From a virus: a DNA stretch of 39,873 nucleotides. The stretch lies in UHGV virus genome UHGV-0062059, one strand, 5' to 3'. Position numbers: made by a program. Each line of letters opens with the position of its first letter. Within the stretch, counting starts at the first letter, position 1. Positions 27,001-33,000 of the stretch are shown piece by piece.

Positions 27001-30000
27001 ATCAAGTAATCATTCTCTCCTACCTTAACCAGTCGCAGTGGTGCAATTGCATCACTCATGCGGCTCAGGACATATTCTTCCGAGTTGGTGAATTTGATGC
27101 CTTTTATCAACGAACCGTCACCAAGTAGAGCCCCAATAACCCAACCATCAAGGGGAATATTTTTACCAAAGTCTCCGGTCAAGGATGGCACTCTTATTCT
27201 TCCCTGATAACGTGTTTTTTGTAGCATCCCAGCCAGCGCATCAGTATCAACAACGCGCTTACCAGTAAATCTTGATGATGAAATTTCCCATAAGTGGTTG
27301 TCGGCACATTTCACGCTACGTCCGTCTTCAAAGGTGACTAAATATGTGAATTTCTTCCCTTGCGGGAAGACGCCAATTACCTCCGAAGGAAGCCCGTCTA
27401 TTGACGCGATGCGATCGCCAATTTTGACTTCTCCGTGAGTAGTCCAGGTGCCATCTGCAAGTAAAATCCCTTCGCTTAGCGCCATTGCTTTCCCCATGCC
27501 AGGACGAGCAGCGATTATCACCAGGTCTTCTGCGTTCATCCCTCCGGTGATGGCATCAAGTTCTTCGATTCCGGTCTTCAGGGTATCTGACTCTTCTCCG
27601 TTCCTCAGACGCCTGTCAAGCGTGTCAGTGTAGTCAGTGATGATTTCCCCTAACCGTACCGGTTTAACCTCGTCACGGGGCTTTCTGATGGCTGAGAGAC
27701 GCTTTACAAGCTCATCCATCGCCTGACTCGATGCGTCGATGGTTCCGCTTTGAATTGGTTCACGCATTTCATCCATGATTTCCAGCACCAGACGGCGGTG
27801 ATAGTTATCCGCGACCATTCCGGCATATCCCTTCAGGTTTGCGGCACTCGGGCAGTTTTTGCTGGTCATCAGGATTGACGTGAAATGCTCCTCTCCGCAC
27901 GCCTCGGCAACCATCAGCGCGTCGATTAGGTTTCTGTTTCGCGCCTGCTTGCGGATAACCTCGAAGGCTTTCCGGTAGAGCGGTATTGAAAACGCTTCCG
28001 GCTCAAGCGTTGCCAGAACGTCACTGGCAATTGGTGTTAATCCACCAATCAGCAGGCCACCGATAACGCTCGCTTCGATATCCTGTTTCATGCAATCCCC
28101 CTGTCTGCAAACTTCCCTTCCCGAACTCCCGTTAACGAATCTTCCCTCAGCAGGTAATCAAAATCTGCCGTCCAGCCCGTGTCGTTGTCTCCGAAGTAAA
28201 ACGGCTTGGCCTGATGCACAAACGCCCTGACATACGCTCTGAAACCGTCCACGTTTGGCGTTTTCAGTTGCGGGATGATTTTCTTCAGGCGGCGTTTGCG
28301 TTTCTCGTTGACCGCAACAGCGTGTGGAAGCCTGTCACCGACTTCGGTGTTGTAGGCGTTCAGGAAGGATTCGTAGTCGATTCGTTCTGCCTTGCGACGT
28401 TCAGGTTTAACCTGCCCATCGCCTCCCCCATTGGGGGGTAGGGGGGTATTATTTATATTCTTGTTAATACCTTCTTGTTCATGATGTGCGGTTGTTTGTG
28501 CGGCTTCATGTGCGCTTTCATGTGCGGCATGTACGCTGAAAGCCGCGCCATTACTGGCTTCATCATGTGCGGCATCATGTGCGGTTGTTTGTGCGGCTTC
28601 ATGTGCGGGGGAATTGTCCATTTTTTGAGCGTATTCATGGTAATTTGTGATGGTGATCACACGACCTTTTTGCTTCTCTCCATCAATGGAGATCATCCCC
28701 TCTTTCACAAAAACCTGAAGCATCCGCTCAACCTGATCACGGCTTGCCGGCTTGCCATGCCTGTCGCATAACTGAAGACCTAAATCAGCTGCTGTCACAA
28801 CCAGTTGACCGGGTTGCAGATGCCATTCATGACCTTTGAAATTCGCTTTGTATGGCTTTCTGGCGGCATTCAGGAGAAGGTTTTCCCACAGGGTGCGAAG
28901 ATAAACATCTTTCGCCCATGACTGTTTCAGAATGCTCCGGTACAACGGAATGTAACCAGTTTTCTGGTTCTCCATCCTGTTGCTCCTGCGCTCGTGTGCG
29001 GCGCTGAAATCGTAGATTTTTGCTGTATTGCTCATCACTACCTGCCTTGACGAAAGACCTTAAGAACATCGTTAAACTGACTTACGGATATGTCTTCTTT
29101 GATCAGCTTTTCCAGAAATGCGTTTGGAATGAACGTATATCCCTCCTCTTTTGGTAGAGACGGGAGCAACGCCCTCGCCTCAGCCTTCAGAAGCTCAGTT
29201 CTGGCAACTTTCACAAAAGAGATTTGAGTTCTTTCATCAATGGAACGAAGGAAGCGCAAACGCTTAGCTTCTTTGTGTGTATCAGGTGGATTAAAGCCTT
29301 TGTTTCGCATATAATTACCTCGTTGGATGTTATTAAAATTCCATTTGTATTTGATCAGAACGCTCGGTTGCCGCCGGGCGTTTTTTATTGGTGAGAATCG
29401 AAGCAACTTGTCGTGCCAATCGAGCCATATCGTCGTCAACGACGCCCCATTCAAGAACAGCAAGCAGCATTGAGAACTTTGGAATCCAGTCCCTCTTCCA
29501 CCTGCTGATCTGCGACTTATCAACTCCCACAGCTTCCGCTGTCTTCTCAGTTCCAAGCATTGCGATTTTGTTAAGCAACGCACTCTCGATTCTTAGAGCC
29601 TCGTTGCGTTTGTTTGCACGAACCATATGTAAGTATTTCCTTAACAAATAAGAAGTTATGCGCATCAACTTATGCGCGTTGTATTCCCGCATTTCGGCGG
29701 GAATGAGGACCATGACTGTTAAAGAGCAATTTGCTTATGCCGCTTTGCGGTAAGCGCTTTCTTGATACTTCAGGGCGCCAGCTGTAACGACTTCCAGTCG
29801 ATAGGCGTCTTTCTCTGGGATGACTTCCTTCCACTGAGAGACTGCTGCGTCGCTAATGCCTAACGCTTTAGCTACAGCACGCTGGGTTCCGAAGTGGTCG
29901 ATAACATCTTTCTTGTACATAGACTCGCTCCGAAATTAAAGAACACTTAAATTATCCACTAAAGGAATCTTAAGTCAAGTTTATTTAAGATGTCTTAACT

Positions 30001-33000
30001 ATGAAAACTCAATTGATGGGAGAGCGCATTCGCGCTCGGAGAAAAGAACTCAAGATCAGGCAGGCCGCACTTGGAAAGATGGTCGGCGTGTCTAATGTTG
30101 CCATATCTCAGTGGGAACGCTCTGAGACAGAGCCAAATGGAGAGAATCTTCTCGCCCTGGCTAATGCGTTGAAGTGTTCCCCTGACTATCTGATGAAAGG
30201 AGAGGAAAGTCTTTCAAACATTGCCTATCACAGTAGGCATGATCCAAGAGGGTCATACCCTCTGATTAGCTGGGTGAGCGCAGGATGCTGGATGGAAGCT
30301 GTAGAACCATATCATAAGCGTGCAATAGATAACTGGTACGATACAACCGTAGACTGTTCAGAAGATTCGTTTTGGTTGGACGTGAAGGGAGACTCAATGA
30401 CGGCTCCGGCCGGTCTCAGTATCCCTGAAGGAATGATAATACTCGTCGATCCTGAAGTAGAGCCGCGTAACGGGAAACTGGTAGTTGCAAAGCTCGAAGG
30501 AGAAAACGAGGCAACTTTCAAGAAGTTAGTTATTGATGCAGGCAGGAAGTTTCTAAAACCACTTAACCCACAATATCCGATGATCGAGATCAACGGAAAC
30601 TGCAAAATCATCGGCGTAGTTGTCGATGCAAAACTAGCAAACCTTCCATAAGGGGGGCATTCGCCCCTTTTTTTTATTTCCTTTAAAAATCAAAGCCAAA
30701 CTTAAGTTACGAAAGAAAATTTAAGTTTTCTTCAAAAATACTCTTGACCATTAATTAAAGAGATCTTAAATTTAAGCCATCAGCAGGACGCTGGTAGCCA
30801 AACGGAACAGATTGGCAGGCTCTTTAACATTGATGGGATTGTCCCGCCGAAATGCGGGAACCAAAGAGTAGTTGGCTTTGGGGTGACGTGAAGTGCAGCT
30901 GCACGACGGCAACTGGAAGATAAGCACCCGGCGCGTCACCGCCAAAGTCAATCATCGGAGGTCAACATGACAGTAGTCATTACATATCTGGCTGACGATA
31001 ACGCCAGAAATCGCCGCAGAGCACGCAGACAGGCTCAACGTGAACAGGCAATGCAAGAGCAGCGACTGGCGCGAAAAATTGCGCTAAAGCTCTCTGGTTG
31101 CGTCAGAGCAGATAAAGCAGCATCACTCGGAAGCCTTCGCTGTAAGAAAGCAGAAGAAGTCGAGCATAAACAGAACCGTATTTACTACCGCAAGCCACGC
31201 AGTGAAATGGGTGTGACTTGTGTTGGTCGCCAGAAAATAAAATTAGGCAGCAAACCACTTATTTGAGAGGAATTAATATGTCATCAATCCGCTTAACTAC
31301 GAGAATGAAAGAGGAAATCGCTCGTAACGCTTTAATTAAGTCTGGGGTTTTCACTGAACTTGAAGAAGTAACAAAGTTAAAGAACCAGCTTGCACTTGAC
31401 GCCAGAGTTATTGCGTTTGGCGGTAAAAAGAAAACTGAGGAAGTGGATCAGTTATCATCCAAGTTGGTAGCTATAAGTGAAGAACTTGAAAAGATGGGAT
31501 GTTCATTTTACTCATACGATGTTAGTTCTACTTCAATTTATCTGACTGTATCTGGCAGAAGGGTTGGATGGCATTCATATGGGAAAGACGGCAACGGCGA
31601 AGATATATTGCTCCCTACTCCGACCAAAGATAAATGCATGTTTAGCGCAGAACACGAAATAACAAAAAGGTTTGATGAAATCTGCGCATTGCAACAAAAA
31701 CTTGAAGCCAAGAAAAAGGATATCGAATCAAATGTATGGGCTGCTTTGAACTCAGTCACAACAGTTAAGCGACTTATTGAAGTTTGGCCTGAAAGCAAAG
31801 AATTGCTACCAAAAGAAGCAGATAAAGCAAGTACAGCACTTCCTGCTTTACGGGTAGAAGATTTGAATAAGATGATTGGACTTCCTTCCGAGGCCGCATA
31901 GTCGGCCTTTATTTTTGGCACTAACAACAGAATAAACACTGCACTGTGTATTCATTCCAACGAGTGAATACACGGAGCAATGTCGCTCGTAACTAAACAG
32001 GAGCCGACTTGTTCTGATTATTGGAAATCTTCTTTGCCCTCCAGTGTGAGGGCCTTTTTATATGCATACCAATAACGCTTCACTCGAGGCGTTTTTCGTT
32101 ATGTATAAATAAGGAGCACACCATGCAATATGCCATTGCAGGGTGGCCTGTTGCTGGCTGCCCTTCCGAATCTTTACTTGAACGAATCACCAGTAAATTA
32201 CGTGACGGATGGAAAAGAGTTGAGGTCTTATTATGCGCAATGAAATAGCCATTAATCACCAGATGCTTCGTGCTGCACAGAACAAAGCAGTAATAGCCAG
32301 ATTTATTGGTGATTCAAAAATGTGGCTTGAAGCAAATAAAGCGATGAAATCAGCTATCAACCTTCCGTGGTATCGCAGGAAATGAGTTTTACAGATAACT
32401 GGTCAGACGAAGAATTCATTCGTCAGATGAACAAAATGCTCAATCAGCACAAAGAACAGGAGAAAGATGATGATTCTGACTCTGAATGATAAGCGTGAAA
32501 TATCGCAAATAATCGCAAGTTTTACTGATGAAGATTACGAGCGAATCAACAGTGAAGTTGTTCGCCTCTGCAAACGTTGCGACCCAATAAGCGAAATGCT
32601 TCGCTCATATAAACCAGATGAACACACTAAGGACGCTATCGACTGGCTGGAAGATGATGATTGTAACTATCAGGAAAAAGCCGCTGAATGGTTCTGGGAT
32701 GCAATAACCGAAAGAGTTAAGGCTGAATATGCCTTCGCAATATTCAAACGCAGACACATTTATGGAGAAGCAGCATGAGCAATATCGTTGAATTCGTTAA
32801 ACAGCAGGAGCAGTTATTCTGCGGAGCATTGACTGAACAGACGGTGACATGGGCTAAGGAAAGCCAGTTTGCAATTCAGTATTTCCAGAAAAATGATTAC
32901 CTGGCTAAAACAGCACTGGCAAATCCAACCAGCGCACAGAACGCCATCATCAATGTTGCGGCGATCGGCATCACCTTAAACCCTGCAAGCAAACTGGCTT

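What the first reader, a model, noticed from the sequence alone, without database searches (positions are those of the whole stretch)
29604..30966. Mosaic immunity region: P22-type C2/Cro and operators with lambda-type CII/PRE and identical boxB in nutL and nutR
c2 and cro and their 18-bp operators are P22-like, while cII, the PRE TTGC repeats and N are lambda/21-like. Both nut sites share boxB CCCGCCGAAATGCGGG preceded by GCTCTTTAAC. The novel joints must fall between these modules.
Basis: partly seen in the sequence, partly recalled or inferred. Interest (0 to 1): 0.4.

Follow-up and report, generated by a model that had tools for sequence, protein, structure and literature searches.

The report
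Known CUS-3-type prophage immunity region
This is the ordinary lysis–lysogeny control region of a P22-like E. coli prophage, and the same mosaic of repressor, cII and N/nut modules is already present, 99.6% identical, in sequenced phages such as JEP4 and CUS-3.

Summary
These are a P22/21-type c2, cro and 18-bp operators, a lambda cII with the PRE TTGC repeats, and two nut sites with boxA GCTCTTTAAC and an identical boxB CCCGCCGAAATGCGGG. The mosaic description is right in outline.

The joints are not novel. Phage JEP4 covers the whole finding (29604-30966) in one alignment with 5 mismatches and 1 gap. CUS-3, Gally, N7 and IME10 also match at about 99%, although only JEP4 spans the finding unbroken. 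173 of 5,426 complete E. coli genomes carry the same arrangement.

Three corrections apply:
- The immunity cassette is at least as close to phage 21 as to P22.
- The nut sites and the N arginine-rich motif are HK620-type, not lambda- or 21-type. They are identical to nutL and nutR annotated in the HK620 record of 2001. Only N residues 34-99 are 21-like.
- The joints sit in short shared linkers: the cII ribosome-binding region, boxA, and the PL leader.

In viral contigs the same boxB pair and N motif bracket at least 11 different repressor types. The region is an ordinary, already known lambdoid module combination.

The parts
29357..29384 (+). oop-type intrinsic terminator, antisense to the 3' end of cII
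   Evidence: Terminator scan found a 12-pair stem followed by a T run. The segment lies in the block that is 96.7% identical to lambda. The fold z-score is -2.0.
29333..29626 (-). cII, lambda-type activator of lysogeny establishment (97 aa)
   Evidence: 98% protein identity to lambda CII with 2 substitutions. Pfam Phage_CII scores 161.7 bits. DNA 29337-29643 matches lambda 38343-38649 at 96.7%.
29604..29617 (+). CII-binding direct repeats TTGCGTTTGTTTGC at the -35 region of PRE, reading toward cro and c2
   Evidence: Found by pattern search. It lies in the lambda-identical block.
29624..29643 (-). 20-nt linker TAAGGAAATACTTACATATG (cII ribosome-binding region and start codon), shared by lambda, HK620 and this window. 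The nutR/cII joint falls within it.
   Evidence: Lambda homology ends at 29643. HK620 identity runs 29624-29727 although HK620 has a P22 c1-type cII.
29660..29677 (-). Hairpin GCGCAU/AUGCGC between boxB-R and cII, a candidate part of tR1
   Evidence: Predicted fold. The HK620 record labels the adjacent 7 nt as tR1. P22 has a similar hairpin at this position.
29686..29701 (-). nutR boxB (CCCGCCGAAAUGCGGG hairpin)
   Evidence: The sequence is identical to the nutR annotated in the HK620 record.
29718..29727 (-). nutR boxA (GCTCTTTAAC)
   Evidence: It is shared with phage 21, and nearly with P22, in the alignment.
29735..29920 (-). cro (61 aa)
   Evidence: 95% identical to P22 Cro and 97% to phage 21 Cro. 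Pfam P22_Cro scores 96.3 bits.
29935..30000 (.). Right operator region. OR1 is 29935-29952, OR2 is 29958-29975 and OR3 is 29983-30000. PR lies on the - strand, with its -35 at 29973-29978 and -10 at 29951-29956.
   Evidence: Operator scan: OR1 is identical to P22 and phage 21, and OR2 and OR3 differ by at most 1 base. PR has a 10-of-12 promoter match.
30001..30651 (+). c2 prophage repressor (216 aa), with a helix-turn-helix domain and an S24 self-cleavage domain
   Evidence: 92% identical to P22 C2 and 97% to phage 21 cI, with residues 17-53 identical to P22. Pfam HTH_3 and Peptidase_S24 both match.
30650..30672 (+). Intrinsic terminator after c2
   Evidence: Terminator scan. Conserved in phage 21 and P22.
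30690..30772 (.). Left operator region. OL3 is 30690-30707, OL2 is 30719-30736 and OL1 is 30754-30771. PL lies on the + strand, with its -35 at 30744-30749 and -10 at 30767-30772.
   Evidence: OL1 and OL2 came from the operator scan. OL3 was placed by eye from the alignment to phage 21 OL3. PL comes from the promoter scan.
30819..30828 (+). nutL boxA (GCTCTTTAAC)
30843..30858 (+). nutL boxB, identical to nutR boxB
   Evidence: The sequence is identical to the nutL annotated in the HK620 record.
30871..30952 (+). Long hairpin in the N leader
   Evidence: Fold energy -42.4 kcal/mol, z-score -3.6, with 0 of 200 shuffles folding as well. The stem arms are conserved in phage 21.
30967..31266 (+). 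N antiterminator (99 aa). Residues 1-33 carry the HK620-type arginine-rich motif, and residues 34-99 are phage 21-type.
   Evidence: 97-98% to CUS-3 and Gally N. Binned identity profile. The C-terminus aligns to lambda N residues 74-110 of PDB 6GOV at E = 2e-4.

Best explanation
The region is the immunity and early-regulation region of a P22-like (Lederbergvirus) E. coli prophage. Its module combination is already known from phages CUS-3, JEP4, Gally, N7 and IME10.

**How it works (inferred from homology to lambda, P22 and phage 21; nothing here is experimental).**
- In the lysogen, C2 dimers bind OR1/OR2 and OL1/OL2 and shut off PR and PL. RecA-stimulated self-cleavage by the S24 domain induces the prophage.
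- After infection or induction, PL transcribes nutL and N, and PR transcribes cro and nutR.
- N binds the boxB hairpin through its N-terminal arginine-rich motif. Host NusB/NusE bind boxA. N's C-terminus modifies RNA polymerase so that it reads through tR1 into cII and the replication genes.
- CII binds the TTGCN6TTGC repeats at PRE, and also at pI-like and paQ-like sites elsewhere in the window, to establish lysogeny. An oop-type antisense RNA opposes cII.

**Module origins.**
- The imm cassette (cro, OR, c2, OL; about 29728-30771) is a roughly 15%-diverged allele of the shared P22-immC/phage-21 type.
- The flanking nutR and nutL/N-leader/arginine-rich-motif segments are HK620-type.
- cII is lambda-type.
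- The N C-terminus is 21/lambda-type.
- The joints lie in short sequences shared between module types: the cII ribosome-binding linker, boxA, and the PL leader.
For: **Coverage by known phages.** JEP4 aligns in a single piece to 28001-31158 at 98.8%, and to the finding span 29604-30966 at 99.56% with 5 mismatches and 1 gap. CUS-3 and Gally are about 99% identical, with indels only in the N leader. 173 of 5,426 complete E. coli genomes cover at least 80% of 29300-31300.

**Segment map.** Blastn and 40-nt identity bins against lambda, phage 21 and P22 give the map.

**HK620 relationship.** HK620 is 100% identical over 29624-29727 and 97.9% over 30772-30966. Its GenBank record annotates these stretches as nutR and nutL.

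**Proteins.** Identities are and Pfam assignments. The N C-terminus matches lambda N in PDB 6GOV.

**Regulatory sites.** Operators are and promoters and terminators. boxA and boxB counts against chance are and hairpins.

**CII sites.** CII-type sites sit at the pI position, just upstream of a lambda-type xis/int, and antisense inside the Q-type gene.

**Independent assortment.** In IMG/VR the same boxB pair co-occurs with the same N motif. It brackets at least 11 repressor clusters, including lambda cI, with either lambda-type cII or P22 c1-type downstream.
Against: - No single record in the phage collection covers the whole 39.9-kb window, so the phage as a whole is a new combination even though this region is not.
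- All functional statements rest on homology. N binding to this boxB has not been shown experimentally in any paper I could find.
- Pfam N_peptide scores below its curated cut-off, 20.2 against 27.9 bits.
Confidence: 0.93

Rival explanations
1. One reading: this is a new hybrid immunity region whose joints between P22-, lambda- and 21-type modules are unique to this phage.
For: Against the three classical phages alone, the region does break into differently related blocks.
Against: JEP4 covers the full span at 99.56% in one alignment. CUS-3, Gally, N7, IME10 and 173 complete E. coli genomes share the arrangement.
Confidence: 0.02
2. The region is a decayed or mismatched prophage remnant, for example an N whose arginine-rich motif no longer matches its boxB, and so is non-functional.
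For: The window could come from a chromosome. Pfam N_peptide scores below its cut-off.
Against: - All four genes are intact and 92-98% identical to functional homologues.
- The two boxB copies are identical.
- The same N motif and boxB pair is kept across more than 70 viral contigs and 510 E. coli genomes.
- The same region occurs in records deposited as phage genomes (JEP4, Gally, N7, HK620, CUS-3).
Confidence: 0.03
3. The shared 16-mer hairpins are not N-binding boxB elements but some other symmetric signal, such as terminators or a protein-binding site on the DNA.
For: No binding experiment exists for this sequence.
Against: - Each copy lies 14-16 nt downstream of a boxA, on the transcribed strand. 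One follows PL and the other lies between cro and cII, exactly as in lambda, P22 and phage 21.
- No T run follows either hairpin.
- Relative to phage 21, the only strongly replaced segments are the two boxB sequences and the N motif.
- In IMG/VR the boxB pair always accompanies this motif.
Confidence: 0.02

Closest known systems
Escherichia phage JEP4 (MT740315), phage CUS-3 (CP000711; King et al. 2007), and phages Gally, N7 and IME10
   Same: They share the same order and the same alleles of cII (lambda-type), nutR, cro, OR, c2, OL, nutL and the N motif. Identity is 98.8-99.6% in DNA. CUS-3 and Gally N are 97-98% identical to the window's N.
   Different: - CUS-3 has an extra 205 bp just before N. 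Gally has a substitution in the N leader covering window 30883-30941.
- JEP4 N switches after residue 62 to a P22/H-19B-type C-terminus.
- CUS-3 lacks the 339-aa helicase insertion. The JEP4 and Gally helicases are annotated at the same 1,377-nt length as CUS-3's.
- Elsewhere the genomes differ.
Coliphage HK620 (AF335538; Clark et al. 2001): nutL, nutR and N
   Same: The nutR-tR1-linker segment is 100% identical over 29624-29727. The PL-leader-nutL-N-leader segment is 97.9% identical over 30772-30966. N residues 1-62 are essentially the same. The record annotates these stretches as putative nutL and nutR.
   Different: - HK620 has a different immunity cassette: a 434/L-like cI, a different cro, and 17-bp operators.
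- It has a P22 c1-type cII.
- It has a P22/H-19B-type N C-terminus.
Phage 21 immunity region (OL657228) and P22 immC (AB426868)
   Same: They have the same cro, c2/cI and operator family. Cro is 95-97% identical and the repressor 92-97%. OR1 is identical, and the repressor residues 17-53, which contain the helix-turn-helix (QAALGKMVGVSNVAISQWER), are identical. Phage 21 also shares boxA, the N leader and N residues 34-99.
   Different: - DNA identity is only about 85%.
- The boxB-R, boxB-L and N residues 1-33 are unrelated to those of 21 or P22.
- cII is lambda-type, whereas phage 21 CII is 39% identical and P22 C1 is 57% identical.
Phage lambda cII, PRE and oop
   Same: cII, the PRE repeats and the oop terminator are 96.7% identical in DNA. 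The window also has a lambda-type pI site, xis and int.
   Different: Lambda homology stops 17 nt upstream of the cII start codon and at the cII stop codon. Lambda's cro, cI, operators and nut boxB are unrelated, and lambda N matches only at its C-terminus.

Membership tests
P22-immC / phage-21 repressor-operator system | The repressor has an N-terminal helix-turn-helix domain and a C-terminal S24 (LexA-like) self-cleavage domain, with high identity to P22 C2 and phage 21 cI. | tested here: met
   Pfam HTH_3 scores 60.7 bits and Peptidase_S24 scores 106.2 bits. Identity is 92% to P22 C2 and 97% to phage 21 cI, with residues 17-53 identical.
P22-immC / phage-21 repressor-operator system | There are three 18-bp pseudo-symmetric operators at OR and three at OL, matching the P22 and phage 21 operator sequences and overlapping PR and PL. 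| tested here: met
   OR1 is identical to both phages. OR2 and OR3 differ by at most 1 base. OL2 is identical to P22, and OL1 differs at 4 positions. PR and PL hexamers overlap the operators.
P22-immC / phage-21 repressor-operator system | A P22-type Cro is transcribed divergently from the repressor gene. | tested here: met
   Pfam P22_Cro scores 96.3 bits. Identity to P22 and phage 21 Cro is 95-97%.
P22-immC / phage-21 repressor-operator system | Lysogens show the same immunity specificity, that is cross-immunity with P22 or lambda imm21. | not testable with these tools
   This is predicted from the identical helix-turn-helix stretch and near-identical operators. It needs plating tests.
Lambda CII / PRE establishment circuit | A CII-family activator is encoded. 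| tested here: met
   Pfam Phage_CII scores 161.7 bits. Identity to lambda CII is 98%.
Lambda CII / PRE establishment circuit | TTGCN6TTGC repeats lie on the opposite strand within the 5' end of cII (PRE), with further sites at pI and paQ. | tested here: met
   The sites are at 29604-29617 (PRE), 38581-38594 (upstream of lambda-type xis/int) and 22592-22605 (antisense in the Q-type gene).
N / nut processive antitermination (lambda, P22, phage 21 family) | N is a small basic protein with an N-terminal arginine-rich motif and a C-terminal RNA-polymerase-binding segment. | tested here: met
   The motif NARNRRRARRQAQR occupies residues 12-25. The C-terminus aligns to lambda N residues 74-110 in PDB 6GOV at E = 2e-4. 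Residues 34-99 differ from phage 21 N at 2 positions, about 97% identity.
N / nut processive antitermination (lambda, P22, phage 21 family) | The protein matches the curated N profile. | tested here: inconclusive
   Pfam N_peptide scores 20.2 bits against a cut-off of 27.9, at E = 8.7e-4.
N / nut processive antitermination (lambda, P22, phage 21 family) | There are two nut sites, each a boxA followed by a boxB hairpin on the transcribed strand. One lies downstream of PL, ahead of N. The other lies between cro and cII. | tested here: met
   The positions match those in phage 21 and P22 in the alignments.
N / nut processive antitermination (lambda, P22, phage 21 family) | N binds boxB RNA and causes Nus-dependent readthrough of terminators. 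| not testable with these tools
   I found no binding study of this boxB type in the paper library.
HK620-type nut/N specificity module | nutL, nutR and the N motif are identical to those annotated in HK620. | tested here: met
   Window 29624-29727 is 100% identical to HK620. The annotated nutL and nutR strings match apart from the single base immediately 5' of boxA in nutR (C in HK620, T here). N residues 1-56 are identical.
   JEP4 spans 29604-30966 at 99.56% in one alignment. 173 E. coli genomes also span the joints.

The most novel reading that the evidence does not exclude
The HK620-type N motif (DDNARNRRRARRQAQREQ) may form a fourth peptide-RNA recognition mode with its boxB. That boxB is a 5-7-bp GC-rich stem with a CGAAAU loop, possibly a GAAA tetraloop closed by a C-U mismatch. 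It may be orthogonal to the solved lambda, P22 and phage 21 complexes. It has been annotated only as 'putative' since 2001 and appears never to have been studied biochemically, yet it is carried by about 9% of complete E. coli genomes. It combines freely with at least 11 repressor types, possibly using boxA and the PL leader as recombination linkers.
Probability: 0.5. Interest if true: 0.3.

Novelty: already known. Interest (0 to 1): 0.08.

Why it matters
It matters little as a discovery. It is a clean textbook example of lambdoid modular evolution, and the same arrangement is already in public phage genomes. Two minor points have some value. First, the joints can be placed to within a few bases, in short shared linkers (the cII ribosome-binding region, boxA, and the PL leader), which fits the boundary-sequence model of module exchange. 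Second, the HK620-type N motif and boxB pair is common in E. coli prophages but appears uncharacterised, so it could supply another orthogonal peptide-RNA pair for antitermination or tethering tools.

Tried and rejected
- A tblastn search with the first 40 residues of N against the phage collection found nothing, probably because of the low-complexity filter. I replaced it with a DNA search of 30835-31070.
- The CUS-3 paper (PMC1951898) is not held in the library, so its description of the immunity region and of the 'bsq5 boundary sequence' could not be read.
- I found no paper in the library describing this boxB type.
- I recall that P22 immC and phage 21 share immunity specificity (Botstein and Herskowitz 1974). 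The library did not confirm this, so it is marked as my own knowledge and supported here only by sequence.
- Rfam has no family for nut, boxB or oop. It hit only the cIII thermoregulator and two tRNAs.
- I considered a defective-remnant reading and a non-boxB reading of the hairpins, and rejected both (see the rival explanations).
- The first blast script pooled all loci into one subject file. I repeated it correctly.

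
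Full report
**Anatomy**

The window reads in the opposite direction to the standard lambda map. The layout below comes from the sequence and ORF list.

| Feature | Coordinates | Strand |
|---|---|---|
| cII | 29333-29626 | - |
| cro | 29735-29920 | - |
| c2 | 30001-30651 | + |
| N | 30967-31266 | + |

- A replication-O gene and a DnaB-type helicase lie beyond cII. An Nmad5-family gene lies beyond N.
- Pfam supports these assignments: Phage_CII (161.7 bits), P22_Cro (96.3 bits), HTH_3 plus Peptidase_S24 for the repressor, and Phage_rep_O.
- The N profile (N_peptide) scores below its cut-off, at 20.2 against 27.9 bits.
- The C-terminal 38 residues of N align to lambda N residues 74-110 of the solved antitermination complex 6GOV at E = 2e-4.

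**Checking the observation**

- The 16-mer CCCGCCGAAATGCGGG occurs exactly twice, at 29686-29701 (-) and 30843-30858 (+). Chance expectation is 0.03.
- GCTCTTTAAC also occurs exactly twice, at 29718-29727 (-) and 30819-30828 (+), with 0.11 expected.
- Each boxA lies 16 nt (nutR) or 14 nt (nutL) upstream of its boxB on the transcribed strand.
- Both boxB RNAs fold as hairpins with a GC-rich stem and a CGAAAU loop.
- TTGCGTTTGTTTGC lies at 29604-29617 (+), inside the 5' end of cII.
- Five 18-bp operators with the AAG-N4-CTT core (OR1-3, OL1, OL2) were found by scanning. OR1 is identical to P22 and phage 21. OR2 and OR3 differ by at most one base. OL2 is identical to P22, and OL1 differs at four positions. 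OL3 (30690-30707) was placed by eye from the alignment to phage 21 OL3.
- PR is TTGACT-16-GATAAT, 29978 to 29951 on the - strand. PL is TTGACC-17-TAAATT, 30744-30772 on the + strand. Both overlap the operators.

**Segment map against the classical phages**

Blastn, 40-nt identity bins and alignments give the following map.

| Window span | Content | Closest classical phage |
|---|---|---|
| 29337-29643 | cII | lambda 38343-38649, 96.7% |
| 29644-29713 | tR1-like hairpin, boxB-R | none of lambda, 21 or P22 (35-62%) |
| 29714-30835 | boxA-R, cro, OR, c2, OL, PL, boxA-L | phage 21 and P22, about 85% each |
| 30836-30860 | boxB-L | none |
| 30860-30966 | N leader | phage 21, 72-80% |
| N codons 1-33 | arginine-rich motif | none (42-50%) |
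| N codons 34-99 | rest of N | phage 21, 90-100% |

At protein level:

| Window protein | Identity to classical homologues |
|---|---|
| C2 | 92% to P22 C2, 97% to phage 21 cI |
| Cro | 95% to P22, 97% to phage 21 |
| CII | 98% to lambda, 57% to P22 C1, 39% to phage 21 CII |

The cassette is at least as much phage-21-type as P22-type. The parts of N and nut that set specificity are neither lambda- nor 21-type. Relative to phage 21, the three strongly replaced patches are boxB-R, boxB-L and the N motif, which is the pattern expected for a coordinated change of N specificity.

**Are the joints novel?**

No.
- A megablast of 29300-31300 against 50,697 phage records finds CUS-3 (98% covered, 98.8% identical), Gally, JEP4, N7 and IME10.
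- JEP4 aligns to window 28001-31158 in one piece at 98.8%. It aligns to the exact finding span 29604-30966 at 99.56%, with 5 mismatches and 1 gap.
- CUS-3 is colinear to 30952, then carries an extra 205 bp before N. Gally has a substitution in the N leader.
- Among 5,426 complete E. coli genomes, 173 cover at least 80% of the 2-kb stretch, several of them at 100% coverage and 99% identity.

**Origin of the nut/N module**

- A search with 30835-31070 (boxB-L, N leader and N motif) hits HK620, HK140, HK630, mEpX2, mEp213, CUS-3 and others at 98-99.6%.
- It also hits 510 of 5,426 E. coli genomes.
- The HK620 GenBank record annotates 'nutL; putative' and 'nutR; putative'. These strings match the window's sites apart from the single base immediately 5' of boxA in nutR.
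- Window 29624-29727 is 100% identical to HK620, and 30772-30966 is 97.9% identical.
- HK620 has a different repressor, cro and operator cassette, and a P22 c1-type cII.

The window's immunity cassette, about 29728-30771, therefore sits between HK620-type flanks.

**Position of the joints**

- The nutR/cII joint falls in the 20-nt linker TAAGGAAATACTTACATATG (29624-29643), which lambda, HK620 and the window all share.
- The other joints coincide with boxA-R and with the PL start and leader.
- This fits the boundary-sequence idea of module exchange. The CUS-3 record labels the c2-to-N spacer a 'bsq5; boundary sequence'. The general model is summarised in PMC3233612.
- That these linkers actually mediated the exchanges is an inference.

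**Independent assortment**

- 79 of these loci carry a divergent pair of boxB sites. The spacings fall into about 10 classes, from about 1,150 to 2,990 bp.
- Wherever the downstream ORF could be read, the boxB pair accompanies an N beginning MTVVITYLADDNARNRRRARRQAQREQ or a close variant. nutR is followed by either lambda-type cII or a P22 c1-type gene, and this holds within more than one immunity class.
- The longest ORF between the two sites falls into 11 clusters at 60% identity. These include the window's type (25 loci), a 238-aa type (27 loci) and lambda cI itself.

The N/boxB pair is a common, freely assorting module.

**N is itself mosaic**

- Residues 1-62 are shared with HK620 and JEP4.
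- Residues 34-99 are shared with phage 21.
- HK620 and JEP4 switch after about residue 62 to a P22/H-19B-type C-terminus.

**Mechanism (inferred from homology; nothing here is experimental)**

- C2 represses PR and PL from the operators and is inactivated by S24 self-cleavage. The Ala-Gly site in SWVSAGCW and the GDSM and FKKL motifs are visible in the sequence.
- N, made from PL, binds boxB through its arginine-rich motif. With Nus factors bound at boxA, it carries RNA polymerase through tR1 into cII and the replication genes.
- CII activates PRE.
- Two further TTGCN6TTGC sites sit where lambda has pI and paQ. One is at 38581-38594, just upstream of a lambda-type xis and int. The other is at 22592-22605, antisense inside a Q-type antiterminator gene.
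- An oop-type terminator lies at 29357-29384.
- I predict the prophage belongs to the P22/phage 21 immunity group, because C2 residues 17-53 are identical to P22's and the operators are nearly identical. That P22 and phage 21 share immunity is my recollection of Botstein and Herskowitz 1974. I could not confirm it in the library.

**What remains open**

I found no paper that characterises this boxB type. The epsilon34 genome paper makes the parallel inference that a divergent N N-terminus implies a new boxB specificity (PMC2629481).

The motif shares RRRxRR with lambda N, and the loop contains GAAA. It lacks an aromatic residue at the position of lambda Trp18. This comparison rests on my knowledge of the lambda N-boxB structure and is a lead, not a test.

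**Verdict**

The arrangement is already known and interest is low.

Noticed in passing
window 25698-28091 (-); insertion at nt 26472-27488: The DnaB-type helicase is 797 aa. Compared with the CUS-3 helicase, it carries a 339-aa insertion exactly inside the Walker-A loop (GMGK|T). The insertion starts with Ala (AMALSEG...) and ends ...IVTHN, followed by Thr. It has LAGLIDADG and Hom_end Pfam hits. This looks like an intein with a homing endonuclease, and the lack of an N-terminal Cys or Ser together with the W, C and T positions suggests class 3. The same insertion occurs at more than 99% identity in 51 phage records, mostly Stx2a-converting phages.
   Followed up: partly
window 38581-38594 (+) and 22592-22605 (+): CII-type TTGCN6TTGC repeats sit at the two other canonical lambda positions. 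One lies just upstream of a lambda-type xis (38607-38825) and int (38803-39873), like pI. The other lies antisense inside a Q-type antiterminator gene (22269-22892, -), like paQ. The lambda-type cII therefore appears to have its full set of target promoters.
   Followed up: partly
window 30871-30952 (+): A long, stable hairpin occupies the N leader between nutL and the N start codon (-42.4 kcal/mol, z-score -3.6). Its stem arms are conserved in phage 21. This is also the spot where CUS-3 has a 205-bp insertion and Gally has a substitution. It may be analogous to the RNase III-processed N leader of lambda, which I recall from my own knowledge and did not test.
   Followed up: partly
window 31278-31901 (+): The gene directly downstream of N encodes an Nmad5-family protein (nucleotide-modification-associated domain 5, 241.5 bits). 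CUS-3 and phage 21 have ral at this position, and P22 has sieB/esc followed by ral. This gene is present in some E. coli prophages with the same immunity region.
   Followed up: no
window 28478-28620: Four overlapping copies of a repeat, built from a roughly 12-nt unit containing CATGTGCGG, lie inside the replication-O gene. They give a repeated HEAAQTTAH-like peptide and are probably the origin iterons.
   Followed up: no
window 32110-32168 (+); 21838-21993 (-): There is an Rfam Lambda_thermo match (cIII thermoregulator, 88.5 bits). Two adjacent tRNA genes, Thr(TGT) and Asn(GTT), lie next to the Q-type gene.
   Followed up: no
L002 (phage 21, OL657228) and L001 (CUS-3, CP000711): These are annotation quirks in the reference records. 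The phage 21 repressor is annotated from an internal Met (190 aa), although the frame is open from MNTQLMGER as in P22 C2. The phage 21 right operators carry inconsistent labels: OR3, OR2 and OR2 again. The one overlapping the site equivalent to this window's PR -10 is labelled OR3. CUS-3 cII is annotated 29 codons too long, at 126 aa.
   Followed up: partly
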